Assembly (NCBI GenBank): GCA_951406725.2
Contig: OX597815.1
Location: 28,520,001-28,584,000, forward strand
Reading direction: 5' to 3'
Length of the DNA: 64,000 bases
Origin: Octopus vulgaris
Taxonomy: Eukaryota
Under the pieces are notes generated by a model, which worked only from the letters and a program-made list of their open reading frames with translations, ran no database searches and had not been told where the DNA came from. How positions within the stretch are numbered: the stretch's first letter is position 1; each line of letters begins with the position of its first letter. Position numbers and translations under genes: made by a program. This document shows positions 22,020 through 61,859 of the stretch, piece after piece.

Positions 22020-22096
<77 letters not shown>

Positions 22097-24125: not shown

Positions 24126-24192
24126 GTAATTATTACAGATATATTAAGTTACTTGTCCAGGATTGAAAAGCAACTGTTCAACCATTTATACC

Positions 24193-24265
<73 letters not shown>

Positions 24266-25029: not shown

Positions 25030-25250
25030 CATTCTTTTTCTGTATACAAAATGATGCACTTTGCCAGATGTACCAGTTATGCCATTGATACATGCATGAA
25101 TTTACAGAATGCCTAAGACCCGTAGACAATTGTTTAACTGTGTATGGACTCCACACTCATCAGTTTAAATGTTGTACTATTTAAAATCAAAAAATATATT
25201 TACTACATTAATGGAATTATAAATATATATGCTTTCATTTTATTATATAG

Positions 25251-25298
25251 AAAAAATCTGCTTTAAGTTCTAAAGATGACCAAAAGGATGCTGACAAG
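25251..25298 (+). CDS. Micro-exon A6, 48 nt: KKSALSSKDDQKDADK
   Basis: ttttattatatag / gtaatt. Confidence 0.78.
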
Positions 25299-25543
25299 GT
25301 AATTATAAGATTAGCTGGCCCCGTACTGTCAAAAATGATGGCTAATTGTAGTATTTTATATATAAATAATGTACAAAATAATTACAGACAGAAACACTTA
25401 CATACTTCCCATGTACATGCACACACATACACACATATGCACACACAGAGTTGAAATGCTATTTGGCTTTTGTTTTCAGCATTGAATATTCACCATCCCG
25501 CTTCCATTGCACACACACACACATGCACACATGCACGCACACG

Positions 25544-25599
<56 letters not shown>

Positions 25600-26271
25600 A
25601 ACAAACATTCACATGACTCCCTTTTACATACATACACATATACTCACGCAGAGTTGAAACGCTGTTTGATTTTTTTGCATGTGTGTGTGTGTGTGTGTGA
25701 TAAAAATGAATGAATAGCTCAAAACATCATTACAGACATCTCAACTGTGTGATTATGTATTATAAATGCAAAGTGCATTACTCAACACTATGTAATTTCA
25801 CATTGTCGCAAAACCACTGTTTCCTCGGGTGATACTGCGTAAACTGCAGTGAAATCTATGTGGATAAAGATTTTTATTCTCAAAAAAATGTTTGCATTTC
25901 AATGAGTGATTGCTGAATATTACCTGATGAAATGGTATGGCTCTGTGACAATGCAGAATTATGTAATGTTATATTATGTCCTTTGCATTCATCAGAAATA
26001 ACCATGCTATTGAGGTACATTTGATATGTTCAGCTCCCCAATCTTTTACACTGTACACAATGATCCACTTTGAAATATGTACTAATTATGCCTTTGATAC
26101 ATATATGGATTTACAGAATGCCTAAGACCAGTAGACAACTGTCTGACTCTGTGGGGACTCTTCACTGACCAGCTTAAATGTAATATCTAAAATCAAGATA
26201 TATATTTGCTACATTAATGGAATCATGTTAATATATAAATATGGATATATATACTTTCCTTTGTTTTACAG

Positions 26272-26301
26272 AAAAAATCTGCCAGAGCACAACTGAGTAA
26301 G
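26272..26301 (+). CDS. Micro-exon A7, 30 nt: KKSARAQLSK
   Basis: tttgttttacag / gtaatt; 18 nt shorter, frame kept. Confidence 0.75.
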
Positions 26302-26650
26302 GTAATTATTAAAGATATATTAATTTGCTCATCCTGGATTGAAAAGCAACTATTCAACCATCTATGCCACTGAGCTTGTGTGTGTGTATGTGTGTGTGTG
26401 TGTGTGTGTGTAGTAAAAAAATTAAGGGATAGCTCAAAACATTATTACACGCGTCTCAACAGTGTGATTATTTATTGTCAATATAAAGTAGATTACATAA
26501 TATTGCATAATTCCACATTGTTGCATAAGCACAAAGCTTCCTTGGGTGAAGCTGAGTAAAAAGATTTTTATTCTCCAAGATTGACTGTATTTCAATGAGT
26601 GATTGCTGAATATCACCTGATTAACTGTCTAACTGTATAAACCACTACAT

Positions 26651-27045
26651 AGGCGCAGGAGTGGCTGTGTGGTAAGTAGCTTGCTAACCAACCACATGGT
26701 TCTGGGTTCAGTCCCACTGTGTGGCATCTTGGGCAAGTGTCTTCTGCTATAGCCTCGGGCCGACCAAAGCCTTGTGAGTGGATTTGGTAGACGGAAACTG
26801 AAAGAAGCCTGTCGTATATATGTATATATATGTATGTGTGTGTGTATGTTTGTGTGTCTGTGTTTGTCCCTCTAGCATTGCTGGTGTGTTTACGTCCCCG
26901 TCACTTAGCGGTTCAGCAAAACAGACTGATAGAATAAGTACTGGGCTTACAATGAATAAGTCCCGGGGTCGATCTGCTCGACTAAAGGCGGTGCTCCAGC
27001 ATGGCCGCAGTCAAATGACTGAAACAAGTAAAAGAGTAAAAGAGT
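26651..27045 (+). mobile_element. SINE family 2
   Basis: Near identical to other copies. Confidence 0.88.
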
Positions 27046-27141
27046 ATAGTACAATTTAAACGTTGCACTATTTAAAATCAAGAAATATATTTGCTATATT
27101 AATGGAATCGTAAATATATGGGCTTTCATTTTATTTTACAG

Positions 27142-27189
27142 AAAAAACCTGGCAGGAAAGCTAAAGATGTCTTCAAGGATGCTCAAAAG
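27142..27189 (+). CDS. Micro-exon A8, 48 nt: KKPGRKAKDVFKDAQK
   Basis: ttttattttacag / gtaatt. Confidence 0.8.
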
Positions 27190-27887
27190 GTAATTATTAA
27201 AGATGTTTTAATTTGTCTTGAACTGAAAAGCACTATTCAATCTCCTATACCATTGTGTAAGTGTATGTGCGTGTTTGTGCATATTTGTGTATGTGTGCAT
27301 GCACATGTGTGCATGTGTATGGTAAAGAAGACTGAATGAATGGTTCAAAACATCATTACACACATCTTAACATTGTGAATCTTTATTGCCAGTGCAAAGT
27401 ACATTACATAACATTATATAATTGCACATTGTTGCATAGCCAAAACATCTCCTCAGGTGATACTGTGTAAAATACAGTCAAATCTATGAGGATAAAGATC
27501 TTTATACCCATAGATTGATTATCTTTCATGGAATGGTTGTTAAATATCATCTGATGAAATGGTATGGCTCTGTGACAATGCAGAATTATATAATGTTATA
27601 TAATATACTTTGCATTTGTAATAAATAACATTCTATTGAAATGCAAATGGTGATATGTTGAGCTTTCCATTCTGTTTTTTTATACAAAACGATGCACAGT
27701 GCAATATGTACCAATTATGTCATTGATACATACAAGGAATTACGAAATGTCTGAGACCAGTAGACAACTGTCTGACAGTGTATAAACCACTATATGGAAC
27801 AATTTAAACATATTATTTAAAATCAAGAAATATATTTTGCTATATTAATGGAATCGTAAATATATATGCTTTCATTTTATTTTACAG

Positions 27888-27935
27888 AAAAAATCTGCCA
27901 CAAGTTCAAAAGATGACAGCAAGGATTCTGAAAGG
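27888..27935 (+). CDS. Micro-exon A9, 48 nt: KKSATSSKDDSKDSER
   Basis: ttttattttacag / gtaatt. Confidence 0.8.
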
Positions 27936-28012
27936 GTAATTATTAAAGATGTTTTAATTTGTCTTGAACTGAAAAGCACTATCCAACCTCCTATACCATT
28001 GTGTAAGTGTAT

Positions 28013-28050
<38 letters not shown>

Positions 28051-28599
28051 ATGTGGGTGTGTGTATGTGTGTGTGTGTGGTAAAGAAAACTGAATGGATA
28101 GTTCACACATGTTAACATTGTAATTCTTAATTATCAGTGCAAAGTACATTACATAACATTACGTAATTGAACATTGTTGCAAAGCCAGAACATTTACTCA
28201 GGTGATACTGTGTAAAACGCAGTCAAATCTATGAGCATAAAGATCTTTATTCCTATAGATTGTGTTTCATGTAATGGTTGTTGAATATCATCTGATGAAA
28301 CAGTAGGGTTCTAAGACGATGCAGAATTATATGATGTTGAATAATATATTTTGCATTCGTAATAAATAACCATGCTATTGAAATGCATGTGAGAATATAT
28401 ATTTTTAAGCAAAATGATGCACTTCGCAATATGTATCAATTATGGTATTGTAGCATACGTGGGTTTCCAGAATGCCTAAGACCAGCAGACAACTCTCTGG
28501 CTTTGCATGGAGCACTACACTCACTAATTTAAATGTACTTTTTAAAATCAAGAAATATATTTACTATACCATTAGAATCATATATATATATATATATAT

Positions 28600-28902
28600 C
28601 ATCATCATCATCATCATCGTTTAACGTCCGCTTTCCATGCTAGCATGGGTTGGACGGTTCAACTGGGGTCTGGCAAGCCCGAGGGCTGCACCAGGCCAGT
28701 CAGATCTGGCAGTGTTTCTACAGCTGGATGCCCTTCCTAACGCCAACCACTCCGAGAGTGTAGTGGGTGATTTTATGTGCCACCGACACAGGTGCCAGAT
28801 GAGGCTGGCAGACGGCCACACTCGGATGGTGTTTTTTATGTGCCACCGACACAGGTGCCAGACGAGGCTGGCGAACGGCCACACTCGGATGGTGTTTGTT
28901 AC
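28600..28902 (-). mobile_element. RTE 3'-end repeat just upstream of A10
   Basis: Family motif; close to the reverse complement of 51670-52113. Confidence 0.82.
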
Positions 28903-28972
28903 ATATATATATGTATGTATGTATGTATGTATATATATATGTGTGTGTATATATATATATGCTTTCATTTAG

Positions 28973-29017
28973 TTTACCGAGAAAATCAGCCATTATGACC
29001 TCGTGGATGCTGACAAA
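28973..29017 (+). CDS. Micro-exon A10, 45 nt if the shifted acceptor is used: FTEKISHYDLVDADK
   Basis: Ancestral acceptor is ccg; new tttag 7 nt upstream; donor gtaatt intact. Confidence 0.55.
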
Positions 29018-29686
29018 GTAATTATTTAAGATATATAAATTTGTTTGTCCTGAATTGAAATGCAATTATTCAACTAATTAATATCATTATGTGTGTGTGT
29101 GTGTGTGTGTGTGTCTGTTTTGTGTTGTGTGTGTGTATGTGTGTGTGTGTGTGTTGTAAAGAATATTTAATGGAGAGCTCAGACATCTTAATAGTGCAAT
29201 TATCTACTACCAGTGCAATGTGCATAATTTTGCATTGTTGCATAACCACAAAATTTCCTTAGGCTATACTGGGTAAGACAAAGTCGAATCTATGAGTATA
29301 AAGATCTTTTTCTCCAAAGACTGATTGTATTTCACAGAATGGTTGCTGAAGGTTACCTGATGAAACAGGATTGTTATGTGACGATGCAGAATTATGTAAT
29401 GTTATTTAATGTACTTTGCATTCGTCATAAATAACCATGCTATTGAAATGCATGTGGTGATATGCTGAGCTTTCCATTCTCTTTTTTATACAAAATGATG
29501 CACTTTGCAATATGTACCAATTATGCCATTGATACATACATGGATTTACAGGATGCCTAAGACTAGTAGGCAACTGTCTGACTTTGTATAGAGTCTTCAC
29601 TGAACAATTGTGCTGTTTAGAATCAAGAAATATATTTACCTTTTTAATAGTAACATAAATATATATGCTTTCCTTTTGCTTTACAG

Positions 29687-29728
29687 AGTAAATCTGCTGC
29701 AAGTCCTAGGGGAGCACGTGCTGGCAGG
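29687..29728 (+). CDS. Micro-exon A11, 42 nt: SKSAASPRGARAGR
   Basis: ttttgctttacag / gtaatt. Confidence 0.75.
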
Positions 29729-29839
29729 GTAATTATTAAAGCTATATTAATTTGCTTGTCCTGGATTTAAAGCAACTATTTAACAATCTGTACCATTGTT
29801 TTGTGTGTGAGTGTGTGCGCGCACGTGCATGCACGCACG

Positions 29840-30160
29840 TCATCATTGTCACCATCATTTAACCTCCATCTACCATGCTAGCATTGGTTGGACGGTTTGA
29901 CAGGAGCCGGCCAGGTAGAAGACAACACCAAGCTACTGTGTTTGTTTTGGCGTGGTTTTTACTGCTGGTTGCCCTTCCTAGCAGCAGCCACCCTGTAGAG
30001 AAGACTGAGTACTTTTTATGTGGCACCAGCACATGTGAAGTCAGTTTTGACATTGGTTTTACAGCTGGATGCTCTTTCAAATGCGAACCACTTCACAGTG
30101 TAGACTGGCTGCTCTTTATGTGGCACCAGCACCAGCACCAGCAGGGTCACTAAGTAACTT
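29840..30160 (-). mobile_element. Older RTE-type 3'-end fragment
   Basis: ccatgctagcattggttggacgg motif, degenerate (ATC)n tail. Confidence 0.6.
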
Positions 30161-31572
30161 GCAAGTCAAGGAATTTTGAGATGAGTGGAAACGTTAGAGG
30201 AGGTGATCTTGCATCAGCTGATGAAAGATTAGAATGTAACAGAGAGATAGAAAGGCAGAAACAGGTGTCTGCTATAGAGTGAATACATGGTTACTAGGCC
30301 AAGAGAGAGAGAGAGAAAGAGAGAGGGGGAAGAGAAGGAAAAGGAAAGTGGGGGTACAAGAATGAGAACAGAAACGTGTGTTGCTGTAAAGGAAAGACTT
30401 AGTTACTTTGCCAGAGGGGAGTGCAGGAGAAGACAGAGAAAGCAATCAAGAATGAGGGATGGAACAGGTGTGCTGCTGTAGAGGAGATATATAGTTATCC
30501 AACCAGAGGGAAGAGCAAGGGAAAGAGAAATAGGGAGTGGGTGACAGCAAAAGTGCAACAGAGAGCAGCAGAGAGGTAGTGGTGAAGTGCCAGGATATGT
30601 ACACAAGCAATGGAATTCAGTGCATAGATGGGATGACAAAGTAAGGAAGAGAGATAAATGGGAGCAAGTGCCAGGACATGCATTCAAGGTACAGAGACAT
30701 AACATATGTGGCCAGGTATTGCCAAGAAGGTGTGAGTAGGGAATAGGGTGGGGAATGCAGTGGCTGGTGGGAACCTGGAAATAAAGAGAGGGATGGGGAA
30801 AGTAGCGATACTGTGAGCAGGGCACTGAAGGCAAGGATGGGGAGTGGAAGAAAATCATAGTGTATGAAGAGGAACTATGAGAAATAAAAGTGATGCAGTT
30901 TAGGAGATGAGATGTAGTTTGGATTCTAGGGGTAGGGTACGTGGAAACTTTGTTGTTATCTGTGGGTGGGACATAATGCTTCTAGCACTGAGTTACACTG
31001 TGTATAAAAGAAAATTGAATGAATGGCTCAAAACATCATTACACACATCTCAACAGTGTGATTATTTATTATTGGTGCGAAGTACATTACTTAATGTTAT
31101 ATAATTTCTCTTTGTTGCTGAATGATCCCATTTCATCAGGTGATACTGGGTAAACTGTAGTCAAATCTATATGGATAAAGACCTTAATCCCCAGAGATTG
31201 ATTGTATTTCATGGAATGGTGGCTGAATATCAGCTTGTTAAATGGGGTTGTTATGTGACAATGCAGAATTATGAATTGTTATATAATGTACTTTATATTT
31301 GTCATAAAGAAACATGCTATCGAGATACATGTGATATGCTGAGCTTCCCATTCTTTTTTATTTAGAAAATTATGCATTTTGCAATATGTACCAATTATAC
31401 CATTAATACATATATGGAGTTACAGAATGCCTAAGACCAGTAGACAACTGTCTGACTGTATATGGACTCTACACTTATCAATTTAAATGTTGTAGTATCT
31501 AAAATCAAAAAATATATCTACTACGTTAAAGAAATCATAAAATTTATTTATATATTTCATTTTATTTTACAG

Positions 31573-31620
31573 GGAACATCTTCTATGACTCCAAAAGATG
31601 ATGACAAGGATACTGAAAAG
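31573..31620 (+). CDS. Micro-exon A12, 48 nt: GTSSMTPKDDDKDTEK
   Basis: ttttattttacag / gtaatt. Confidence 0.8.
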
Positions 31621-36344: not shown

Positions 36345-36395
36345 GGAAAATACACGTCAGATGTATCTTATGAAGATTACTCAGACTTTGACTCG
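36345..36395 (+). CDS. Diverged micro-exon A13, 51 nt: GKYTSDVSYEDYSDFDS
   Basis: ttgttattttatag / gtaattatt; downstream flank weakly similar to A units. Confidence 0.72.
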
Positions 36396-43478: not shown

Positions 43479-43520
43479 ATGAGAAGTTCAACAAGTTCAG
43501 AAATGGTAGAGTCAGAGTTT
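43479..43520 (+). CDS. Diverged micro-exon A14, 42 nt: MRSSTSSEMVESEF
   Basis: ttttattttatag acceptor; weak gtatat donor followed by an A-like flank (..ttggaaagcagctat); another gt at 43506 is also phase 0. Confidence 0.5.
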
Positions 43521-47430: not shown

Positions 47431-49482
47431 ATATATCTATATCTATATACATGTATGTATATATGATATATATCCCTCCCTAATACTCTTCTCTGTCCCT
47501 CTGCCATCCATGACTCTCTTTCTCTCTCCTACTACCACTTGACCCATATCTATCTAAGCCCCTGATTCCTATTTCCTTTTCCACTGACATGGTTGGTCAC
47601 GCTTCTTTGTGCTCCTTCACTTTTTCCTCCACGATTTGTTTACTTTTCCCTTTGTTCTGCCCTTCCCCCTCTCCAGTCCTTTAGGACATTTGTATTTCCT
47701 TTTTGTATTAACCACATTCATCTGTTTTGTAGCCATGCGGGTTTTTTGGTCGTATATGTATAATTATTATAATTATTTTAGTTTGTTTTGTTTTTGTCAT
47801 TGTTTTCGGCATAAGCAAAACCTAACCACTTATAACATTCTATTCCTTCTAAACCAAATCATGTTAAATTAATCAAGCCTAGTCATTCCCAACATCTTTG
47901 ATTATCTCCCTTGTACTGGAAAAAAATCCCTGATTACCTTCCCCTGCCTGGAACTCCATATTTCACAACATAGCAAAGACCTGATACGATATAGGTAAAG
48001 AAATTTGAAAAGAAAATATGAAACCAGTTATTTCTCCAAAATCTATGTTACTATATGCAAAATTTGATAACATTTTTCTAACATAACAATTTTAATATAT
48101 TCTTTAATCATATAACGCAAGCCTTCTGTAGTTTTTTCACTCTTTTTTGTCTTTTATACATCCAACCACTTGCTTTCACATACTAACTCTCTCACCTATA
48201 TATATATATAAAACAAAGTTTTGGCCAGCTAAGCCATCATCAGAGTGTAATGCATGAGAGTTAGTATTGCTTTTATATAGTCTGTGTTGAGTTAAACTAT
48301 TCCATGGGCGTGTGGGATTCAGTTGGGTGGTAATTAGATTTTTATGATTGTTGTAGTGGAGAGGTGTTTTGAAGAAATTTTAATTGATTAAATTTGGGGC
48401 TATGTTATTCTTTAGACTTTATTCATGTATGTAGAACTTTGTAAACAAGCTCTAGGTGTTTCTCTTTTGTTAGGCAAGCACAAGGTGTGACAGTATTTTT
48501 GTTGCTTTTGGTATTATTGGTCAAAGATACAAAGTCTAGTATTTAGTAATTGGGCGTGTTTACTTTTTTTTCACAAAAGAATGTAGGTAGGTAGTGAATT
48601 TAGGCTTGTCCTTTATATATTTGTTTTGTGGTTTACATGAGTATTCTTCTTTACACTGGAAGAAGTGGGAAACAAGAGTGGTTGTATGTACCACAAAACC
48701 ATGTGAGAGATTTCCTTAAGGAAAATATTACAGTACTGTGTGTTGTAACATATCTTGATTTCAAATTTTGCATTATAAACATTACTTAACATCTTGGATG
48801 TTTTGTAAAAGCAAATCATTTTAAATTATGATTCGCACATGCATGCTCACATGTGAACACACACACGCACACACACACAAACATACATTTGGGCACACAC
48901 ATGTATACGCATCAACATCAATTATCATCAATTTTATGACACCTTTTCAATGCTTCACAGATTAGACATCTCCTCTCTAACAGAGTTTTGCCATTTTTTG
49001 TTTTATTTTTTTTATCATGCCAGCATGGAAATAAGATGTTAAATGATGATGGTGCTGATGATGATGATGAGAATGATGATAACATTTTTAATTTATGGAT
49101 CATAATTTTAAATGATTTGCCTTTACAAAACAATTAAGCTGTAAAGTAACGTTCATGTTGCAAAATTTGAAATCAAGTTATATAAACATAATCAAAGATA
49201 TTTTTGTTTCAATTTTATTTATTCTATAGACAAAAAGTGCCCATACATACAACCATACATACATACATACAAACACGCACACACATACATACATACAACC
49301 ATACATACATACATACATACATACATACATACAACCATACATACATACATACATACATACATACATACATACATACATACATACATACATACAACCATAC
49401 ATACATACATACATACAACCATACATACATACATACATACATACATACATACATACAAACATACATACATACAACCATACAT

Positions 49483-49568: not shown

Positions 49569-49706
49569 TATGCACACTAAATGTTTTAACAATTCTCAAA
49601 ATATTTCAAGTTTTAAAGTGTCTTTAAACTATGCAATTTGAAACAATGAAATATACTGGCTATGCTCATGCAAGTAACTTTCTTTTTGTTTTTATCATAT
49701 TTATAG

Positions 49707-49763
49707 ATAAAAAGTGTACCAAGTTTTGAAGCATCGAAAATATCAATGAAATTATACACCACG
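49707..49763 (+). CDS. Micro-exon B1, 57 nt: IKSVPSFEASKISMKLYTT
   Basis: catatttatag / gtattc; flanks repeated at B2 and B3. Confidence 0.75.
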
Positions 49764-50099
49764 GTATTCCTTTATTTTAAATGTATTGTTTTAGATTAGG
49801 AAGCATATCTTACTTATAATAAAATGCAATATATGGCTCATAAGTCATGCTGGGAAAATCAGAGTAAAATAACAAATGGAGTGGAAGTGAGTGACCGTCA
49901 GAGGTGTTGAATGCATGCAGGTGAACTGCATTCAAATGTTTTGCTCTGAAGAAATTGGTATTTTAATCAAAATAAAACTGCAAATTTTTTTTTTTTATCA
50001 GTTTCACATACACATATATGAGTATATATATGAAATTAAATATCAGACACTTTTGTTTTCAAAATATCGTTCACATAACAAATGTATAAATGTCAAGTG

Positions 50100-50163
<64 letters not shown>

Positions 50164-50194
50164 TTTTGTGTGTGTGTGTATATATATATGTGTG

Positions 50195-50237
<43 letters not shown>

Positions 50238-50298
50238 ATATATATATATGTGTGTATATATATATATGTGTGTGTATATGTATATATATATATATATA

Positions 50299-50367
<69 letters not shown>

Positions 50368-50963
50368 CCATATATATATATATGTATATATATACATTTT
50401 TTTTTCTTTCATTTTAGTCCATTTTTCCATGTTTGCCCTTTCTGATACAAGCTCTTATTTCCTTTCCCAGGTAAAGCATAATATATTTTACTGATTTTAT
50501 CAATCTAAAAAATATAAACAAACATACTCCCGCGCGCAGACATTCACACACTCACTCACATATATACACATATGTATACATACGAACATGCATAGGTATA
50601 TAAAATATACATGCATATGTATGAAAGTATATATATATATATGAGAAAAGTAAGAAAATGGAGAAATTGGCATGCAGACATCAGTTTATTCAAAGATATT
50701 CAAATTCATATAATGAAATTCCTGTCCTACCACCGTTTCCATATCCAATTGGTTCAATTACAGAAATTAAGTTAATTAAATTAAAATTTTCGTATTGAAA
50801 TTGGTTAATTGGGTATTTCATCAAGTAAGAATTTTCCCAAAAGGGAGTTACATGTCAACATGTTGGTTGACCAACGACTGACTCAGATGTGTGCATTGTT
50901 TAAAAAAAGCCGTCCTTTTTATGGAAAAGAAGTCAGGACCAAAATCCTTCAAACTGATGTTAA

Positions 50964-51183
50964 CCCTTTAGCATTCAAACCGGCCATATCTGGCCAAAAT
51001 ATTTAACCTGTTTTATATTGAAACTGACCAGATCTCACTTCTCACCTCAGCCCTACCATGTCATTCTAAAACTAAAAAATTACATCACTGAAATCTCTAA
51101 ACTACAAGATAATGCATGATTAATTCAAACCATTTTAAATAAACAAACATCACATTTGACAGAATAATCTGAACACTAAAGGG
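50964..51183. mobile_element. piggyBac-type MITE
   Basis: TTAA|CCCTTTAG ... CTAAAGGG|CTAA. Confidence 0.72.
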
Positions 51184-51669
51184 CTAAACATCCAAATCCG
51201 CCGATTCAGTCCAAGCAAAAAATATATAGAAAAACTATATATTCTGTATTGTATAATCAATAAATAAAGTATAAGGAAAGGAAAATATATATAGTTATAG
51301 ACGATCTTTAATCCAAAGTTAGTACAGAGTAATAATACAAGTACTAATGATAATACTTTTTGTGATTGCAGGGTTAAAAGTTAATGTTTATTTTAAAGTT
51401 ATTGTAAACAAAAGAATGTTGTTTACAGATGTAAGTTGATATCTGAGAGTAAAAGTTTCTTCTACATAGGGGCTACACAAAATTTTGTTAAGAAAAGTGT
51501 CTCTAACCAAATTTACACCTCTAATAATAGGAACAGGTCTTCTTCTACCAGCCTCAGTAAATTCATTTAGGACTTAACAAGAAAAAATATCATGTATTAC
51601 ATATGCACATGCACAAATATATCAAACATATTTGTTTATATGTATTGGTACCACAAATTTGTATCTTTG

Positions 51670-52113
51670 TGGTACCAGTGCCGGTGGCACACAAGAAAAC
51701 CATCAGAACGTGGCCGTAGCCAGTACCGCATCAACTGGCCTCCGTGCTGTGGGCACGTAACAAACACCATCCGATTGTGGCCGTTTGCCAGCCTCATCTG
51801 GCACCTGTGTCGGTGGCACATAAAAACACCATCCGAGCGTGGCCATCTGCCAGCCTCGTCTGGCACCTGTGTCGGTGGCACATAAAAATCACCATCCGAG
51901 CGTGGCCGTTTGCCAGCCTCGTCTGGCACCTGTGTCGGTGGCACATAAAATCACCCACTACACTCTCGGAGTGGTTGGCGTTAGGAAGGGCATCCAGCTG
52001 TAGAAACACTGCCAGATCTGACTGGACTGGTGCAGCATTCGGGCTCCCCAGACCCCAGTTGAACCGTCCAACCCATGCTAGCATGGAAAGCGGATGTTAA
52101 ATGATGATGATGA
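51670..52113 (+). mobile_element. RTE 3'-end repeat with ~62-bp tandem units
   Basis: Family motif and (GAT)n tail. Confidence 0.82.
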
Positions 52114-52543
52114 TATATAAACAACGCACACATCTGAGTTTATTGTTGATCAATCAATATGTTGAAATGTAACTCCCTTTTGGAAAAATTTTTTCCTAAT
52201 GAAATACCCAACTAACCAGTTTCAATATGAAAATTTAAATTAAATTAATTTAATTCAATTTCTGTAATTGAACTAATTGGATATGGAAATGGCAGTAGGA
52301 CAAGAATTTCATTATATGAATTTGAATATCTTTGAACAAACTGGTGTCTGCATGTCAATTTTTCCATTTTCTTCCTTTTCTCATCCATAAATATTTTAAA
52401 TACCTATATATATATCAAGGCAAAACCAATATATTTAGTTTTCCCTGAACACTGGTATAAACCAGAGAACTAGGATGCTAGCATTCCTTAAAGGATTCTA
52501 GGTCCCTCACACACTCACACACAAACACACACATATATGTGTG

Positions 52544-52589
<46 letters not shown>

Positions 52590-53459
52590 GTACACATATA
52601 CATACACACATATATGTGTTAAATAAAAAACATGAAGAACAACACAAAAACAACAATACGAGGACATGGTACATGTAAAGTATTAACAGACGCTCAGGGA
52701 AGGAAAGAAAAGCGGCTTTACATTTCGAACAAAGCTCTTCTTCAGAAACAGAGGAAAGTCCAATAGCAAAGGAAGACAGAGGAAAAAATCACTACCAATT
52801 CACATGTGGTTACATTTTGAAATGACCGGAAGGGAGTGGGTGAAGAAAAAGTTCTTTCTAAGAGTGTAAGAGAAGGAAGTATATGTGTGTATGTGTGGGT
52901 ATATGCGTTTGCGCAAGTCTGTGTGTGTAATAGCATGTGTGTGTTTGTGTGGTGTTGGTTGTTTATATGTGTATGTGTGAGTGAACTTTGTGTCTCCTAA
53001 TGTTGTAGGAAGAATTCAGCAGCATGGTAACAGGAGTGGTGGTCTTTTGTGTAGTTGTGTGTCTCTTCACATGTGCTTAGAGGAATGGTCAGTAGAAAGC
53101 TCTTTGACTGACAGATTGAAGTATGTGTGTGCGTGTGTATTTATATGTTTGTGTGTGTGTTTTATGTGTAGTGTGTGTATGCATCTGTGTGTGAGTGTAT
53201 GTGTGTGTACGTGTGTATGTGTGGGGTTGTGCATGTGGAGTTATATGTGCATTCCTGTGCGTGTGTGTGTGTGTATATATATATATGTATGCTCATATAT
53301 ACACGTGTGTATGTGTGTGTGGTAGAAACAGTTAATATGGAAGATAGAATATACTGGAAACTTTATTTATCACAACAATCGTTTTGGCACATCCTGCACT
53401 GTTCCCTCGTGGGTGGGAAATCTATATAATGAATTCCAATGTACCCCACAGTGCAGAAC

Positions 53460-54180
53460 CATCTCTTCTGGTGATATAACTTGGTTTCTTGTTACATACA
53501 CCGAATCAACAATTGGAAACTGAACAAAGGCTTGGAGAATACATCCAGTGAACTCATAATTAATGTATGCTCAACTCACTCAACAAGCGCTGATGAAATG
53601 CAACTCATAAGAGTCCATAGTATTAACTACTTGGGATATAATAGCAACCAAATCGTAAATAACCCCAGGAGACCACATAATAATAGCATAGGGAATAGGA
53701 ACCTAAAGGCAACAAAAACTTGGAGATGAACTGAGAACAACCACTGGTCAGTAACAACAGCCAACAACAAGTGCCCATGTAGAGACAAACCAAGATACCC
53801 ATTGAATAACCTCTGCATGAGTCACCACCTTGTTTATAAATGCACAGTACATTCAAGAGGAGGCCCATATGTGTACATAGGTGCAATGGCTGATTCGTTC
53901 AAGAATCGATATTGCAACCACATCTCCAACTTTAAAAAGTCTGCAAAAGCACACAACATCCTTGGCGGACTTTCTGTGGAATCAAAATCGAACAGGATTA
54001 AATATGAACTATATTGGTCAATAATATGGCATGCACAACCACACAACGCCCTTTCCAGGTGATGTGGACTATGCTCAGAGGAATCTCTAACTATTTTACT
54101 AACCAGAGAAAGGATTATTAACAAACTATCTAAAAGGATAGCATGTTGTGTATACATGCTAAGAAATGCACATTCACCCA
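53460..54180 (+). mobile_element. Penelope-like GIY-YIG endonuclease remnant
   Basis: LVYKCTV..YVYIGAMADSFKNRYCNH..WSII..CGLCSEE. Confidence 0.78.
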
Positions 54181-54492
54181 TTACAATAATCATAATTCAG
54201 CTCCATAGTCTTAATTAGCATACATGGAGTACCTGGATTTCCAGATAGCAAACCACAACTACCCCTCCATCCCTCGCCCCAGGAATACATGTTGAGATTT
54301 GGCATCATCAGATGCTCCAAGGAACTATGATACGGTATTATATACCTTTTTCAAAAGATTGTATGAAATACATTGTTTTTGAACATGCATACATATACAT
54401 AGACATGCATACATACATACATACATACATACATACATACATACATACATGCATACATATAAACATACATACATAAATGTGTTAGTGTATAT

Positions 54493-55574
54493 ATCATCAT
54501 CATCATCATCAACATTTAATGTCCGTTTTCTATGCTGGCATGGATAAGGCGGCTTGATGAGAACTATCAAGGCCAGGGGTCGCAGCAGTTTCCATATTCT
54601 GTTTTGGCACAGTTTCTATGGCTGGATGCCCTTCCTAATGCCAACCACTTTACAGAGTGTGCTGAATGCTTTTTATATGGCACCTTGATTTTAGAATCTT
54701 GATTCTTTTGTGGTGGGTGGATCTTCTTGAGTGCACCAATGTTCCACATATTTCAGTCATGTGTCATCTCCTTTGTAAGGCTCAGCCTTCAATAATTTGT
54801 CTCGTATCTTCCTGAGTCTCCCTCTTCCACAGCCTCCCTCCACTTTAAGGGATCGGCACCTTTTAATGCCATTGTTCTCATCCATCTGCATCACATGACC
54901 ATACCAGTGTAGTCTTCTCTCTAGCACACTGCCTTTAATTCCTCTTATACTCAACTTCTCTCTCAATACTCCAGTGCTCTGACACATGCACACTGACATC
55001 ACACATCTTGTGGAGCATACCAGTTTTGCTCCCCTCCAGCCTTAGCATGTCCTTCTCAGTCAGGGCTCACATCTCACGAGCATGCAGGATTGCAGTTTGT
55101 ACACATGCATCATACAATCTCCCCTTCGCTTGGAGAGAGGGACTTCGGTTGCCAACAGAGATAAAAGCTCTCTGAATCTGCTTCATCTTATTCTTATTCT
55201 AGCAATTACATTTTCTGCTAATTAGGTTGCAAAAATTATCTACAACTTCCAGGGGTCCACCAGGACATTTGAGGAAATCAATCTACCTTCTATCTGTGAT
55301 CTTATGACTCCCATTCATCTTCCATATACAAACACTATCTTCTCTTTATTCTTTTACTCATTTCAATCATTTGACTGTGTCCATGCTAGAGCATCACCTT
55401 CAATGGTCTTAGTCAAACAAATTGACCCCAAAAATTATTATATTTAAGCCTAGTACTTATTCTATCAGTCTCTTTTGTTGAATCACTAAGTTACGGGAAC
55501 CTAAACATACCAACACCACTTGTCAAGCTGTGATGGAAGAACAAGGACAGACACAAAGATACACACACACACGT

Positions 55575-55610
<36 letters not shown>

Positions 55611-56222
55611 GATGGGCTTCTTTCAGTTTCTGTCAACCAAATCCACTAACAAGGCTTTGGTCAGCCCAAAGATATAGTAGAAGATACTTGTCCAAGGGGC
55701 CATGCAGTGGGACTGAACTCGGAACAATGTGTTGAGAAGCGACGTTCTTACCACATAGCTACACCTACACCTATTATTCCTACTATTCCCCAGCACCTCT
55801 TGTGTATCCATAGCTTGTGCTGGGTACACTGAATGAATTTCTGCCAACGTCTTTCCTACATGTGAAGCAGGGCCTTTCCATTTTCTTGCTTACTAGGAAC
55901 TTGGTCTTTGGTAAGTTGATTTTAAGACTCTTCGATTCCAAGTTCTGTTTCCACACCTGCAATTTCTTTTCTAATTCTGTTACAGATTCTGCTATGATGG
56001 TGAGATCATCAGCATATAGTAGTTTCTATGGGCTTCCAGTTTTAAATTCTTTTCTCTGTTATGGCTTGAAGGACAATGGTGAATAGGACCATCCCTTGGT
56101 GAACACCTACCTGTACTCTAAATTCCTCACTGTACCTATGGCCAACTCTTACCTTATTAACAGTACCCCTGTGCATGGCCTATTCTGCTTTCACAAGCCA
56201 TTCATCTATTCCTAGCTTCCTC
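54493..56222 (-). mobile_element. Older RTE-like LINE fragment interrupted by a SINE at ~55350-55770
   Basis: Minus-strand YADDL, RRLHWYGHV and GRGRLRK motifs; (ATC)n tail. Confidence 0.78.
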
Positions 56223-56541
56223 AGAGACCACCACCACCACCACCACCACCATCATCATCATCGTAAACACTGAGGATATGCAATAGAGATAGACAACCTA
56301 ATAAATCCTCCATTATCAGCATTACTGTGAGAATTTTGAGAGAAACTACCAGCCATTTTGCTATCATCGTCATCATTATCATCATCATCATCATCATCAA
56401 CATTTTCATCATCATCACCACCACCATCACCAAAGGTATGTGAGAGAGATGGACAAACAAATTAATCCTACATTATGAACACCATCATCACCATCATCAT
56501 AGACCAGATTGTCTGCCTAGCATACCTATAAAATATGCACA

Positions 56542-56631
<90 letters not shown>

Positions 56632-56771
56632 CATTTATGCATGCACTGATTATTTTAGCAACTCCAAAACATTTCAAGTTCTAAAGTCTCTTTAAATTGT
56701 ACAATTTGAAACAATGAAATATATTGACTATGCCCATACAAGTAACTTTTTTGTTTTTATCATATTTATAG

Positions 56772-56828
56772 GCAAAAAGTACTCCAGCTTTTGAAACAGT
56801 CACACCGGACATGAAAAATTCTTCTTCA
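56772..56828 (+). CDS. Micro-exon B2, 57 nt: AKSTPAFETVTPDMKNSSS
   Basis: catatttatag / gtattc. Confidence 0.72.
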
Positions 56829-56880
56829 GTATTCATATACTTTAGATGTTTTGATACATGTTTTTATGTATACGTATATA

Positions 56881-57116
56881 TTTATTTGTGAATTAAAGCT
56901 ACCATTGGTTTCATGTTAAGAAAAGTAGGAAAATATCTAAATGTCTTAACAATTTTTCAAGCCAATCACACAGAAAAAGGTGTTTGCCTTCATTTTGGAA
57001 AACAAGGAGATGAACACCTTTCTTCATGTGATCAGCTTGAAAAATTGTTAAGACCCTTGGATATTTTCCTACTTTTCTTAACATGAAACCAATGGTAGCC
57101 TTAATTCACAAATAAA
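56881..57116. repeat. Fold-back palindrome with ~105-bp arms, 50 nt downstream of exon B2
   Basis: ctaccattggtttcatgttaagaaaagtagg / cctacttttcttaacatgaaaccaatggtag. Confidence 0.88.
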
Positions 57117-57180
57117 GAAATGATATCCACCAATGCGGTGCTGAGCACTCATTTTCATCATTCGACATTTACGTATATAT

Positions 57181-57595
57181 ATCATCATTATCATCATCAT
57201 CGTTTAACGTCCGTTTTCCATACTAGTATGGGTTGGATGGTTCAACCGGGGTCTGGGAAGCCAGGAGGCTGCACCAGGCTCCAGTCTGGTTTGGTAGTGT
57301 TTCTACAGCTGGATGCCCTTCCTAATGTCAACCACTCCGTGAGTGCAGTGGGTGTTTTTTTACATGCCACTGGCACAGGGGCCAGAGGAAGCTGGCAAAT
57401 GGCCACAATCGGTTGGTGCTTTTACATGTCACCGACACGGACGCCAGTCAGGCAGCGCTGGCTTCTGTCACATTCAGACGGTGCTTTTTACGTGTCACCG
57501 GCACAGGTGTCTTAACTACAATTCCATTTTATTATTATTTTGATGTTGGTGTTGACGTACTTGACTCTGTGGGTCTCCTCAAGAACAGCGGGTCA
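57181..57595 (-). mobile_element. RTE 3'-UTR repeat
   Basis: Family motif and (ATC)n tail. Confidence 0.8.
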
Positions 57596-58161
57596 TATAT
57601 ATATATATATTCTAAAACATGCTTTCATTAGGCATATAAATATTGAATATTTGTTGAATAAAGGACTTAATATATATGCAGAGTGTATCATTTATCACAT
57701 GTGTCATTTGTGTTGATAAGAATATTGGATATTATACACTGTTGGTCATAATGCACTTTCAGTTGTCTTGATTACACCATTGTTGTCCATCTTGCTGTCC
57801 TGTTGCCATGGAGGTCCTCCAAGCAGCCTTTTCCAATCTCTTGATTACAACTTGACAATCACTTGGACATACCTGCAGATGGCTTTTACATCATTTTACA
57901 TATCGTCAGGGACAGGTGATTCAAGTTGTCTCCAGTTCGGTTCAGGTATATGATGTTCATAAACCATAAAAATGGAAAAACATTGATGTCCATTGCTGTG
58001 GAATGGGACTTGTGGTTACTTGTCTCACCTGTCTATGACTGTCAATTATAGGCGTTTTAACACCTGTTGTTCTCAGAGAGTCACTTTCTCTGCATTAAAT
58101 TGTAACCAACTAGTGAGTAAGCAAAGTTCACACATTCTGTATGTGTGTTTGCTGATGTTTA

Positions 58162-58547
58162 GTGGAGGCGCAATGGCCCAGTGGTTAGGGCAGCGGACTC
58201 GCGGTCATAGGATCGCGGTTTCGATTCCCAGACCGGGCGTTGTGAGTGTTTATTGAGCGAAAACACCTAAAGCTCCACGAGGCTCCGGCAGGGGATGGTG
58301 GTGATCCCTGCTGTACTCTTTCAACACAACTTTCTCTCACTCTTACTTCCTGTTTCTGTTGTACCTGTATTTCAAAGGGCTGGTCTTGTCACTCTCTGTG
58401 TCACGCTGAATATCCCCGAGAACTACGTAAGGGTACACGTGTCTGTGGAGTGCTCAGCCACTTACACGTTAATTTCACGAGCAGGCTGTTCCGTTGATTC
58501 GGATCAACCAGAATCCTCGTCGGCGTAACCAACGGAGTGCTTCCATC
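58162..58547 (+). mobile_element. tRNA-derived SINE, distinct family
   Basis: tggcccagtggttagg A box, ggtttcgattccc B box; 13-bp TSD ttgctgatgttta. Confidence 0.88.
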
Positions 58548-58588
58548 TTGCTGATGTTTACAACACTTGTGCTGCTTTTCATTCATAT

Positions 58589-58624
<36 letters not shown>

Positions 58625-58626
<2 letters not shown>

Positions 58627-59085
58627 TCTTTACTCTTTTACTTGTTTCAGTCATTTTGACTGCAGCCATGCTGGAGCACTGCCTTTAGTCGAGCAAATCG
58701 ACCCTGGGACTTATTCTTTGTAAGCCCTGTACTTATTCTATCAGTCTCTTTTGCTGAACCGCTAAGTGACGGGGACGTAAACACACCAGCATAGGTTGTC
58801 AAGCAATGCTAGTGGGACAAACACAGACACACAAACACACATATACATATATATACTTTTTTTTCTTTACTACCCACAAGGGGCTAAACATAGAGGGGAC
58901 AAACAAGGACAGACAAAGAGATTAATTCGATTACATCGACCCCAGTGCGAAACTGGTACTTTATTTATCGACCCCAAAAGGCTGAAAGGCAAAGTCGACC
59001 TTGGCGGAATTTTAACTCAGAACATAACGACAGACGAAATCCCGCTAAGCATTTCGCCCGGTGCACTAACGTTTCTGCCAACTTG

Positions 59086-59088
<3 letters not shown>
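58625..59088 (-). mobile_element. SINE family 2 3' half (58625-58850) next to SINE family 1 (58863-59088)
   Basis: Similarity to other copies in the window. Confidence 0.8.
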
Positions 59089-59135
<47 letters not shown>

Positions 59136-59139
59136 TCCA

Positions 59140-60022
59140 AGTTTCAGCTCAGAGCTGCGGCCATGCTGATGCACCGCCGTTTTGTGCTACACTGTTATTA
59201 CGACGAACCTCATCTAATATGTGGCACTTGGTGAAGAATGGAGTTTGATATAGCTACTCTTATTTGCACCTCTTGCCGTGAGGTAGGTTCATCTGGGACT
59301 CTTGACAGAAAGATGTCCAGCTTTGATTTAAAAACCGCTACATCTACTTTGTGAAAGTTCCTCAGACTCTTTGGGAGAATATTAAAAAGCTGTGGGCCCT
59401 TGAAACCCAGGCTGTTGCAGAAGCTGGTCCTGAAGCGTGATGGCATTGCTGGGATCTTTGGCACTATGCAGTGTCGTCCCTTTCTAGCATTGGTGTAGCT
59501 TACAATGCCAAAATTTGGCACAATTCCTTCCAGGATCTTCCAGACATATATTACTGCATACTTCTCCCGTCTTCTCTCCAGGGAGTAGAGTCATAGCTGT
59601 TTCAACCTTTCTCAGTTGCTGAGCTGTTGCAAAGAGATGATCTTCTTTGTGAATCTTCTCTGGATTGCTTCAAGGTCCACTGTTAATTTTACACATGTGG
59701 GTGACCATAGCTGTGAGCAGTAATCCAGGTGACTGAGGATGAATGTCCGCCAGAGGACCATAATGGTTTCCTTATCTCTGGTTCTGAATGTTCTTAGGAT
59801 CCACCCAGCCAGTCGTCTGCACTTTGTCGCCATCCTGGTAATGTGCACTTGGAAAGAGGTATCATCACTCATGTCGATACCCAGGTCCCTCACAGACTTA
59901 GGCTCTGGGATTGAAATTCCCTGTGGACCGGTGTATCCTGTAAGTTTAATATTCAGTTTTGGATGCTGGTAGCGCAGGGCCTGGAATTTTTCTGCATTAA
60001 ACTGCATATTATTATCCTGCAT
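59140..60022 (-). mobile_element. CR1/L2-group LINE 3' fragment
   Basis: MQFNAEK, VRDLGI, HLDYCSQLWSP, LEAIQRRFTK, GPQLFNILP and FKSKLD motifs. Confidence 0.88.
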
Positions 60023-60024
60023 AT

Positions 60025-60108
<84 letters not shown>

Positions 60109-60111
<3 letters not shown>

Positions 60112-61308
60112 TATTATAAAAGGCAGATTTTATCTGCCTCCCTTTGTCACTTATAGAAATCTACAATATAGGATTTCTTCAATTACAATTTACCTAGCAT
60201 TTTTAAGAGTAGAATGCATCGGGTCATGCCAGGTCCAGTTTTTAAAATTTAAACTCCAATTAAGCAAAATTTACAGAAAACTCACATTCTGGTGTGTATG
60301 TCAAATGCTTTTCTTAGTCTGGTTTACAGCACATGCAAACGCACACACACAGTGTGCAACGAATAAAGTGAAACTAGATGTAATATTTGTTTCTGTCTAT
60401 CACGCTGATAGATACATGAGTAAAATGTATGGCAAGCTAAGAGATAAGAGTGAGTGAAAATGTTCTTGGAAGAGAGTAAATAGCGACAGATTGATTTGAG
60501 GAAGACTAAACTGAAAGTATGAAACAGTGTTTATGTATAAACAGACGACACTTATATATAGTTATTAATAAATGTATGCATCCGTTTAACACTTTCATTA
60601 CCAAACCGCCCGAATTTACCTATTCATATTTAAATGAGAATATCAGAGTAAATCTCTTTAGTACATTCGTGGAAACACGTATTATACTTCGTAAACACTT
60701 CAAATACAGTTTTGTACAAAAATCGAAGTGTAATTTTAATTCCGTGAATTATGGGAGATTTTTTTCCGAAATTTGTTCCTATTGTGTTTTCAAAATTTGT
60801 AATTCTGACAAAAAATGGATACGAATTTCATTATATCAAGCAGCGAGTCAGAATTCGAAGGATTTTCTACTGAAGACGTTCATAAATCTAACTCTATGAC
60901 TGAAAAAAAAAGCATCTTTATATAAGAGTGAAGTTGTGTGTCTGTCTCCTACGATTTAGATTCGTAACTACTCCCACATTTTGCGGTGCAGTTTAACCAA
61001 AAGCAGGTATCTTATAGTCGTGATTCATATCGAGCCCTTCTGGGTATTAGCGCGCGTCTACGATGAGTCTACGATTTAAAAAAAATTTACCATCATATTT
61101 TTCCATTTTAATGCATTTTTTCGCTTTTATATAAGGGAAGTAACTCTCTAAAAATATCTACGATGTGTCAACGATTTTAAAAAAAAATTTACCTTAATTT
61201 TTTTTCAATTTTTAATGCATTTTTTTGCTATTTTTTGGCTATAACTCTCTAAAAATGCTTATATAGTTATTTCCCTTACAACCCGAGCAACGCCGGGCGA
61301 TACTGCTA

Positions 61309-61309
<1 letters not shown>
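60109..61309 (+). mobile_element. Composite non-autonomous Helitron
   Basis: a|TC start, second TC-type start near 60915, 3' hairpin cccgagcaacgccggg then CTAG|t. Confidence 0.75.
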
Positions 61310-61355
<46 letters not shown>

Positions 61356-61457
61356 ATCCAAACAAGAAAACACAAAAAAACAAAAAAACACAGCAACGCG
61401 AGGACGTGGAACAAATAAAGTATTATTGGACGCTCAGGAAGGAAGGGAAGAAGGAGG

Positions 61458-61492
61458 GTTTAACGTTTCGAGCGGAGCTCTTCGTCAGAAAC
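61458..61492 (-). ncRNA. Minimal hammerhead motif in a ~200-bp dispersed repeat; related copies ~52716-52749 and ~8090-8125
   Basis: Minus strand gttt CTGACGA a gagc tcc gctc GAAA cgt TA aac. Confidence 0.6.
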
Positions 61493-61559
61493 ATAGGAGA
61501 AGGAAAGATCCCGAGAAGGGAAGACAGAGGAAAAAAATCGGCAGCGGTACTCACGAGGT

Positions 61560-61611
<52 letters not shown>

Positions 61612-61730
61612 CACACACTTGTATACATGTTAAATTCTAAAGTGTCTTTAAACTGTGCAATTTGAAACAATGAAATATATTGACTATGTTTACACAAGTG
61701 ACTTTCTTTTTATTTTTATTATATTCATAG

Positions 61731-61787
61731 GTACAAAGTGTTCCAATTTTTGAGTCACCCACAAAGGAGATGAAAGATGCTTCTACG
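61731..61787 (+). CDS. Micro-exon B3, 57 nt: VQSVPIFESPTKEMKDAST
   Basis: atattcatag / gtattc. Confidence 0.75.
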
Positions 61788-61859
61788 GTATTCATATATT
61801 TTAAATGTATTGACTTTTTAGACTAGGAAGCAAATACATGCATATATATATATGTATGC

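What the first reader, a model, noticed from the sequence alone, without database searches (positions are those of the whole stretch)
49610..61830. Second micro-exon family (57 nt, gtattc donor) shows the same exon-over-intron divergence
B1, B2 and B3 share flanks (tttgaaacaatgaaatata..caagt.actt..atag) and an x-K/Q-S-x-P-x-F-E..MK scaffold. B1 vs B2 differ at ~27/57 exon nt against ~9 substitutions plus one indel in ~95 upstream intron nt. A separate duplication round with the same signal argues against chance. The units are now 5-7 kb apart because of TE insertions, and the array probably continues past the window.
Basis: partly seen in the sequence, partly recalled or inferred. Interest (0 to 1): 0.7.

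Follow-up and report, generated by a model that had tools for sequence, protein, structure and literature searches.

The report
Fast-evolving cassette exons in octopus C10orf67
Three duplicated 57-base pieces are exons of an octopus gene related to human C10orf67, two of them seen spliced together; their coding letters have changed about three to four times faster than the introns copied with them, likely through selection on a predicted floppy spacer of the protein.

Summary
Observation confirmed. B1 (49707-49763), B2 (56772-56828) and B3 (61731-61787) are phase-0 cassettes that differ at 27, 22 and 17 of 57 exon bases but at only 9/92, 12/95 and 11/92 upstream intron bases. They belong to an octopus DUF4709/C10orf67-like gene (RefSeq XP_036356659.1). 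Spliced contigs from two runs of one study join B1 directly to B3, then to a fourth B-like exon beyond the window; B2 is left out. An O. bimaculoides model carries B1-B4 in order, so the triplication predates that split. Intron distances (0.12-0.17) fit the published neutral clock (dS 0.123), so the flank is not unusually slow. Positive selection is likely but unproven: B2/B3 shows omega about 2.7 with intron-like synonymous change, whereas pairs with B1 show excess synonymous change too. B is not an independent family: its flanks are homologous to the upstream A cassettes. The scan noted this gene before in another octopod genome (e1-8668018, unchecked) and fast micro-exons in two other genes of this genome.

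The parts
49707..49763 (+). B1 cassette exon, 57 nt, phase 0, donor ACG|gtattc (4 of 9 consensus matches); spliced to B3 in contigs; absent from the O. sinensis RefSeq model
56772..56828 (+). B2 cassette exon, 57 nt, phase 0, open frame, weakest donor of the 21 scored (TCA|gtattc, 3 of 9); skipped in the contigs seen; orthologue present in an O. bimaculoides model
61731..61787 (+). B3 cassette exon, 57 nt, phase 0; covered exactly by spliced contigs; 18/19 identical to RefSeq XP_036356659.1 residues 465-483
49590..49706 (+). Upstream intron flank of B1, homologous to the flanks of B2 (about 56655-56771) and B3 (about 61625-61730) and, more distantly, to A and G flanks
57644..57797 (+). Distal intron segment behind B2, homologous to 62179-62333 behind B3 (18 differences in 152); used as a neutral yardstick away from the splice sites
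49229..49245 (+). B0 relic: B-like upstream flank, acceptor and the first exon codons, then cut by a TACA microsatellite
43479..43505 (+). 27-nt phase-0 exon M just upstream of the B set (9/9 identical to the RefSeq model); downstream flank related to B3 and G flanks
36345..36395 (+). 51-nt phase-0 exon G (17/17 identical to the RefSeq model); both flanks related to B flanks
19964..31620 (+). A cassette array: ten phase-0 exons of 30-48 nt that are in the RefSeq model, plus relic units
154..18370 (+). Six upstream exons of the same gene (154-300, 4152-4239, 12996-13066, 16207-16260, 16510-16584, 18281-18370), mostly predicted helix; 173/174 aa identical to O. sinensis XP_036356659.1
55786..56025 (-). 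Reverse-transcriptase (LINE-type) fragment in the B1-B2 intron
   Evidence: Pfam RVT_1 E=1.6e-7

Best explanation
B1-B3 are duplicated, frame-preserving exons of an octopus C10orf67-like (DUF4709) gene that add 19-residue units to a predicted disordered spacer between conserved helical ends, and their excess divergence over the co-duplicated introns likely comes from positive selection on the variable residues. Steps. (1, shown) A cassette of one phase-0 exon with its flanking intron has been copied repeatedly, giving the A set, G, M and the B set. (2, shown) B1 and B3 are spliced together and on to a further B-like exon. (3, inferred) Weak GTATTC donors make the B exons optional: three different sets are on record (B3 only, B1+B3, B1+B2+B3), though from different species or labels. 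(4, shown) The exons have changed about 3.7 times faster than the flanks, while S3, P5 and K15 stay fixed in all six copies from two species. (5, inferred) The flanks tick at the neutral rate, so the exons are faster than neutral. (6, inferred, untested) Selection acts on the spacer's charge, length or phosphorylation sites; a germ-line or sperm role is my best guess for the selective setting (about 40%).
For: Gene identity. Splicing: (2 of 4 runs laid, X3 and X6, one study). Age: B1/B2/B3 are each closest to the bimaculoides unit in the same position (11, 12, 12 of 19, against 7-10 for the other B1-B3 units). Neutral clock: mean autosomal dS O. bimaculoides-O. sinensis 0.123 (PMC10925132, passage), against B flank ML distances 0.12-0.17 and distal intron 18/152. 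In six A units proximal and distal intron rates are equal (1.02 vs 0.99) while exons run 2.3-2.5 times faster. B2/B3: nonsynonymous 15/44 vs intron 29/244 (p=9e-4), synonymous 2/13 (p=0.66), omega 2.7, rho 1.2. Codons that keep the same residue differ in 3 of 20 comparisons. Orthologous B peptides differ at 22/57 residues, 13.7 expected if neutral at d=0.123 (P=0.007). Base composition does not explain it: A/T columns vary 18/37 in exon vs 13/96 in intron. Disorder: pLDDT below 50 over residues 333-506 of the O. sinensis protein, which includes B3.
Against: In the three-way B model omega is 0.92 once the synonymous rate is free (rho 3.9), and that model beats omega-only (p=0.011); a site class with omega > 1 adds nothing (p=0.31). 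For B2/B3 alone, omega is not significantly above 1 when rho is free (p=0.24). In A the two parameters are also not separable (p=0.30; site model p=0.026). The orthologue test fades if the local neutral distance is 0.17 (P=0.14 for residues, 0.03 for minimum base changes). Window vs O. sinensis: 6/197 residue changes in cassettes vs 1/174 upstream is not significant (p=0.13). The three inclusion patterns come from different species or labels and two are automated models, so alternative splicing within one species is not shown. Low pLDDT may also reflect the shallow 9-row alignment, which has no homologue over the spacer. No tissue is known for the contigs.
Confidence: 0.58

Rival explanations
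1. Exon-restricted block mutation in a tolerant spacer: compensating small indels, multi-base substitutions or short conversion tracts from other cassettes raise both synonymous and replacement differences, and weak constraint lets them fix. No positive selection is needed.
For: Pairs with B1 give rho about 7 and omega 0.5-0.6 (p for rho = 0.002-0.004). B1/B2 has 5 codons with three changes and 5 with two. A gapped B1/B2 alignment lowers the count from 27 to 18 with three gaps.
Against: B2/B3 has no three-change codon and intron-like synonymous change. No donor for B1's odd part was found in the window. No enrichment of CpG-type (5 of 66 pairwise differences) or A>G changes (2/24 vs 3/20). It does not say why blocks would hit exons and spare the introns beside them.
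Confidence: 0.22
2. The yardstick is slow: the intron flanks are constrained by splicing signals or homogenised by gene conversion between cassettes, and the exons drift near neutrality.
For: Omega near 1 in the joint model. Only alignable intron could be compared, which favours conserved stretches; B1/B2 homology ends about 25 nt behind the donor. The three flank distances are nearly star-like while exon distances differ.
Against: Flank distances are at or above the between-species neutral distance, as expected for copies slightly older than the split. Distal intron equals proximal in B2/B3 (0.12 vs 0.12) and in A. A much older triplication with converted flanks is not excluded.
Confidence: 0.15
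3. B2 (and perhaps B1) is a decaying pseudo-exon and the pattern is incidental.
For: B2 is skipped in X3 and X6, has the weakest donor and a long hairpin element about 50 nt behind it. The O. sinensis model lacks B1 and B2. Other dead cassettes lie in the gene.
Against: B1 is spliced. B2 keeps an open frame, both splice dinucleotides and 12/19 identity to the bimaculoides unit. A dead exon would diverge at the intron rate, not faster.
Confidence: 0.05

Closest known systems
Octopus sinensis LOC118762221, RefSeq XP_036356659.1 (uncharacterized, 923 aa)
   Same: Orthologous gene: 173/174 residues identical over six upstream exons and 191/197 over 13 cassette exons including B3; the exon after B3 matches the contig end.
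   Different: The model has neither B1 nor B2. Whether that assembly lacks them or the model skips them was not testable here.
C10orf67 / DUF4709 (PF15821) proteins of molluscs and vertebrates (e.g. XP_059175355.1 Physella acuta, XP_066545248.1 Amia ocellicauda)
   Same: N-terminal DUF4709 and the C-terminal motif around EKK..IL..S...L..E.Y.RQTLQRQ align.
   Different: The 8 other family members aligned are 444-670 aa; the octopus protein is 923 aa with a middle of short S/K/D-rich repeats that does not align to them. Its DUF4709 match is only just above cut-off (27.8 vs 27 bits).
Grass CENP-C duplicated exons (PMC549713; passages and section 10 read)
   Same: A single gene with conserved ends and a middle region of repeatedly duplicated exons in which positive selection was detected.
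   Different: Unrelated protein; there Ka > Ks was shown directly, here only against introns; no centromere link is known for this gene.
Schistosome micro-exon genes, MEGs (PMC4350168; passages read)
   Same: Runs of small symmetric exons, TE-rich loci, fast protein change.
   Different: MEG products have a signal peptide and are mostly made of very small exons; this protein has long helical ends, no hydrophobic N-terminus by inspection, and 27-57-nt cassettes in its middle only.
Dscam-type mutually exclusive exon arrays (recalled; PMC3236188 seen as a search listing only)
   Same: Tandem duplicated homologous exons.
   Different: B1 and B3 occur in the same contig, so they are additive, not mutually exclusive.

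Membership tests
C10orf67 / DUF4709 family | N-terminal DUF4709 (PF15821) above Pfam cut-off | tested here: met
   O. sinensis orthologue P0003 27.8 bits, cut-off 27, E=3.6e-6; O. bimaculoides P0004 25.6 bits, below cut-off; the domain's exons lie upstream of the window
C10orf67 / DUF4709 family | Conserved C-terminal helical motif shared with named C10orf67-like proteins | tested here: met
   phmmer hits to C10orf67-like proteins at residues 755-889 (E 1.9e-6 to 7e-4); alignment
C10orf67 / DUF4709 family | One-to-one orthology (reciprocal best hit, synteny) | not testable with these tools
   no whole genome held
C10orf67 / DUF4709 family | Mitochondrial or testis localisation implied by database names | not testable with these tools
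   'mitochondrial' appears only in source names; one passage lists C10orf67 in a testis co-expression table (PMC10298883); testis enrichment otherwise recalled
Schistosome-type micro-exon gene (MEG) | Most of the coding region made of very small symmetric exons | tested here: not met
   symmetric cassettes are 27-57 nt and confined to the middle; upstream exons are 54-147 nt, two of them not symmetric
Schistosome-type micro-exon gene (MEG) | Signal peptide | tested here: not met
   by inspection of P0003, charged N-terminus with no hydrophobic run; no predictor was run
Schistosome-type micro-exon gene (MEG) | Isoform pool by exon skipping | tested here: inconclusive
   B2 skipped in contigs; three inclusion patterns, but across species or labels; O. 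bimaculoides RefSeq isoforms differ by single 20-aa units further downstream
Mutually exclusive exon array (Dscam type) | Only one homologous exon per transcript | tested here: not met
   B1-B3-B4 in one contig; ten A exons in one model
Positively selected duplicated exons | dN/dS > 1 from coding sites alone | tested here: inconclusive
   omega 0.92 (three-way); 2.7 for B2/B3 but p=0.24; A site model p=0.026
Positively selected duplicated exons | Replacement rate above a neutral yardstick (introns, genome dS) | tested here: met
   omega 3.2 with introns as yardstick, p=7e-5; B2/B3 p=0.0015; orthologue test P=0.007 at d=0.123, P=0.14 at d=0.17

The most novel reading that the evidence does not exclude
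Octopods have turned an old, compact coiled-coil gene (C10orf67) into an exon accordion: one cassette is copied, lost and skipped lineage by lineage while its residues are driven apart by recurrent positive selection, giving a species-specific, splice-tunable disordered spacer, perhaps in sperm or germ cells under sexual or intragenomic conflict. If the unchecked notes on other octopus genes hold, faster-than-neutral cassette exons are a recurrent mode of octopod gene evolution, or octopod exons of this type carry an exon-restricted excess of mutation.
Probability: 0.3. Interest if true: 0.75.

Novelty: new variant of a known kind. Interest (0 to 1): 0.48.

Why it matters
C10orf67 is conserved from molluscs to vertebrates and I found no functional account of it in the searches run. 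An octopus copy whose ends stay recognisable while its middle is rebuilt from fast-changing exon cassettes points to where selection acts and gives a cheap test: each cassette carries its own intron clock. It also corrects the annotation: B1 is a real exon missing from the O. sinensis model. Tandem exon duplication with adaptive change is a known kind of event, so the surprise is moderate. It would rise if omega > 1 were shown from orthologous DNA or if the excess synonymous change in B1 proved to be a real exon-restricted mutation process.

Tried and rejected
No whole genome is held, so the array could not be followed in DNA past the window. The run search with exon 154-300 listed 23 runs, 6 holding words and none on record as RNA: no RNA holder listed; X3 and X6 are treated as RNA only because their contigs are spliced. 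X1 (share 0.91) gave no contig on B3. X3, X4 and X5 gave no contig on B2, and the DNA-like run X2 gave only the B1-locus contig on both stretches; these blanks are not evidence of absence. Only 214-nt stretches around B3 and B2 were laid, so the exon upstream of B1 was not read. GC or CpG bias as the cause: rejected. A>G excess, as RNA-editing-templated change would give: none in B (2/24 vs 3/20) or A (7/38 vs 20/135). B1's odd 3' half copied from its own upstream intron: a 13-of-14 match gave P=0.033 in 1 of 12 tests, not significant. Proximal-flank constraint: not seen. Further B-bearing proteins: none in two searches, which did not return the query's own cluster either. Pfam on five single exons gave only weak or generic coiled-coil-like hits. 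5 of 6 intronic frames gave no transposon family in Pfam. Rows left out: A1, A7, A8, A11 and the relic units were not in the A codon model (unequal length or no distal anchor; one search used 6 of the 10 modelled A exons). Literature: DUF4709 0 papers; 4921504E06Rik 4 papers, seen as listings, none on function by title; octopus/microexon/exon duplication listing showed nothing on this gene (15 of 19 listed). Supplements of PMC13669787 (octopus dN/dS lists) were not opened, as I had no gene id; they may bear on the selection claim.
Full report
What is there. The three units are at 49707-49763 (B1), 56772-56828 (B2) and 61731-61787 (B3). Each is 57 nt, open in frame 0, with an AG acceptor and a GTATTC donor. 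About 110-125 nt of upstream intron and 25-45 nt of downstream intron are shared. Exon differences are 27, 22 and 17 of 57 for B1/B2, B1/B3 and B2/B3. Upstream differences are 9/92, 12/95 and 11/92 (Fisher p = 3e-7, 5e-4, 0.009). In a three-way alignment 30 of 57 exon columns vary against 25 of 123 intron columns (p = 2e-5). Allowing gaps in the exon gives 18/53 and 18/56, still above the intron.

Which gene. The exon at 154-300 is identical to residues 112-160 of RefSeq XP_036356659.1 of Octopus sinensis. Six upstream exons match at 173 of 174 residues and 13 cassette exons at 191 of 197. The window is therefore an Octopus very close to O. sinensis, likely O. vulgaris (inference; not tested). 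The protein has DUF4709 at its N-terminus. A search of 1.84 billion representatives returned 21 hits. Of the 10 looked up by name, 4 are octopod and 3 are named C10orf67-like, matching through a C-terminal motif. An AlphaFold model on a 9-row alignment gives long helices over residues 21-325 and 752-872 and pLDDT below 50 over 333-506, 553-598 and 623-754 (mean 56, pTM 0.24). B3 falls at 465-483, in the low-confidence stretch. I read this as a predicted disordered spacer; it is not measured.

Are they spliced. Of four runs laid on the B3 stretch, X3 and X6 (one study, kind not on record) each gave a contig that covers 61730-61787 and leaves at both splice sites. The 30 letters before are the end of the B1 exon (window 49733-49762), and the 30 letters after encode the next ten residues of the RefSeq model. 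So B1 is joined directly to B3, B2 is left out, and the array continues with a B-like 19-mer beyond the window. The O. sinensis model goes from exon M straight to B3. An older O. bimaculoides model, XP_014790746.1, has four B-like units in order; each window unit is closest to the unit in the same position (11, 12, 12 of 19). That model's 5' end looks artefactual, so its support for B2 splicing is moderate. Donor matches to the consensus are 4 of 9 for B1, B3 and M, 3 of 9 for B2, and 5-7 for the other 17 exons scored. Optional inclusion is the likely reading, but the three patterns come from different species or labels, and the species of X3/X6 might lack B2.

Is B a separate family. Against dinucleotide shuffles, B upstream flanks (splice signals removed) score z 20-28 with each other, up to 8.0 with A flanks, 3.7-5.2 with the G flank, and at most 1.6 with three non-cassette exons. 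B3's downstream flank scores 7.9 with G and 6.1 with M. A, G, M and B thus come from one ancestral cassette, and B is a later sub-expansion. It is a second set of branches, not an independent origin.

Fast exons or slow introns. The triplication predates the O. bimaculoides split, put at about 34 million years in 10.1101/2023.05.16.540928 (passage) and 13-34 million years in PMC10925132 (passage). The latter gives mean autosomal dS = 0.123 for that species pair. B flank distances are 0.12-0.17, and a distal segment shared by B2 and B3 differs at 18 of 152. These fit neutral copies slightly older than the split. In six A units the proximal and distal intron rates are 1.02 and 0.99, and exons run 2.3-2.5 times faster. 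Composition, CpG decay and A>G bias do not account for the excess. Between species the B peptides are 35/57 identical, against 233/286 for the N-terminal part (p = 0.0015). A neutral simulation at d = 0.123 gives 13.7 changed residues against 22 seen (P = 0.007), but at d = 0.17 P = 0.14.

Is it selection. With introns as yardstick omega is 3.2 (p = 7e-5). When the synonymous rate is freed the best fit is omega 0.92 and rho 3.9, better than omega alone (p = 0.011), and a positively selected site class is not needed (p = 0.31). The pairs differ. B2/B3 has the classic shape: omega 2.7, rho 1.2, replacements 15/44 against intron 29/244 (p = 9e-4), synonymous 2/13 (p = 0.66); but omega is not significantly above 1 with rho free (p = 0.24). 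Pairs with B1 give rho about 7 and omega 0.5-0.6, because B1 differs in blocks of two- and three-base codon changes. Codons that keep their residue differ in only 3 of 20 comparisons in B and 26 of 150 in A, so the inferred synonymous excess comes from paths through multiply changed codons. Either strong selection at a few sites or block mutation can give that; a two-class model with rho fixed at 1 fits almost as well as the free-rho models (lnL -443.3 vs -442.5 and -442.0). I put positive selection at 0.58, block mutation in a tolerant spacer at 0.22, slow or converted flanks at 0.15, and decay at 0.05.

How it likely works. A phase-0 exon copied with its flanks can be gained, lost or skipped without breaking the frame (follows from the sequence). 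The gene holds ten A exons, G, M, at least four B exons, a further repeat set downstream and several dead units. The product would be two conserved helical ends joined by a charged S/K/D-rich linker whose length depends on copy number and splicing. In B, S3, P5 and K15 are fixed in all six copies from two species and F7 and E8 in five, which suggests a short motif kept under constraint with variable residues around it (inference). The selective setting is unknown. Human C10orf67 appears in a testis co-expression table (PMC10298883, passage), was a weak NOD2 interactor with no function inferred (PMC5094585, passages), and is testis-enriched as I recall. PMC13669787 (passages) reports that 11.4% of octopus orthologues with dS > 0 have dN/dS > 1 and that sperm-motility terms are enriched among positively selected genes, so a fast germ-line gene would not be unusual in this clade.

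Comparison and novelty. It is an octopod member of the C10orf67/DUF4709 family by domain and C-terminal motif; orthology by synteny was not testable. It works like the duplicated, adaptively evolving exons of grass CENP-C (PMC549713, section 10 read) and resembles schistosome MEGs (PMC4350168, passages) in exon symmetry, but fails the MEG features tested. It is not a mutually exclusive array. I found no paper on this octopus gene or on DUF4709 in the searches run. The scan's own notes describe the same gene with about 75 cassette copies in another octopod genome (e1-8668018) and fast-changing small exons in two other genes of this genome (e1-8666961, e1-8666857); none was checked here and none counts as support. 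Verdict: a real, spliced, faster-than-neutral exon set in an annotated but uncharacterised gene; a new variant of a known kind; interest 0.48.

Noticed in passing
window 49229-49245: Relic B-like cassette (flank, acceptor, first codons) interrupted by a TACA microsatellite, 480 nt before B1.
   Followed up: partly
window 21391, 28980-29017, 34190-34335: Dead A units: one that lost its donor, one of 38 nt with a CG in place of the AG acceptor, and an intron-only fragment. None is in the O. sinensis model.
   Followed up: partly
window 33649-33681: 33-nt AG..GT segment with a good donor and an in-frame stop between two A runs; absent from the O. sinensis model. Either a dead exon or a homopolymer error in the assembly.
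   Followed up: no
window 56881-57116 and 62019-62179: Two unrelated long hairpin elements, about 50 nt behind B2 and about 230 nt behind B3 (about -94 and -100 kcal/mol with DNA parameters); similar inverted repeats at 41596-42983 and 44756-45172.
   Followed up: partly
proteins P0006, P0026, P0027 (O. bimaculoides RefSeq isoforms): A third repeat set further downstream (SP/TP-rich, 18-20 aa) varies by single units between isoforms and differs strongly between species (55% identity over the middle region vs about 81% at both ends).
   Followed up: partly
proteins P0004/P0005 vs P0003: The A repeats of O. bimaculoides include near-identical copies not matched one-to-one in O. sinensis, suggesting lineage-specific expansion of A while B1-B4 kept one-to-one order.
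   Followed up: partly
proteins P0008 and P0007 (Argonauta hians): Two adjacent partial models match the N- and C-terminal halves; the N-terminal one ends in a different K/S/R-rich low-complexity region.
   Followed up: no
protein P0028 residues 1-80: The older O. bimaculoides model begins with what looks like a GIY-YIG/Penelope-type transposon fragment (recalled likeness; similar to window 53730-54062), so its 5' end is probably a prediction artefact.
   Followed up: no
window 4239-4244: Two donors 5 nt apart at the second exon; the RefSeq protein fits the first (phase 1).
   Followed up: partly
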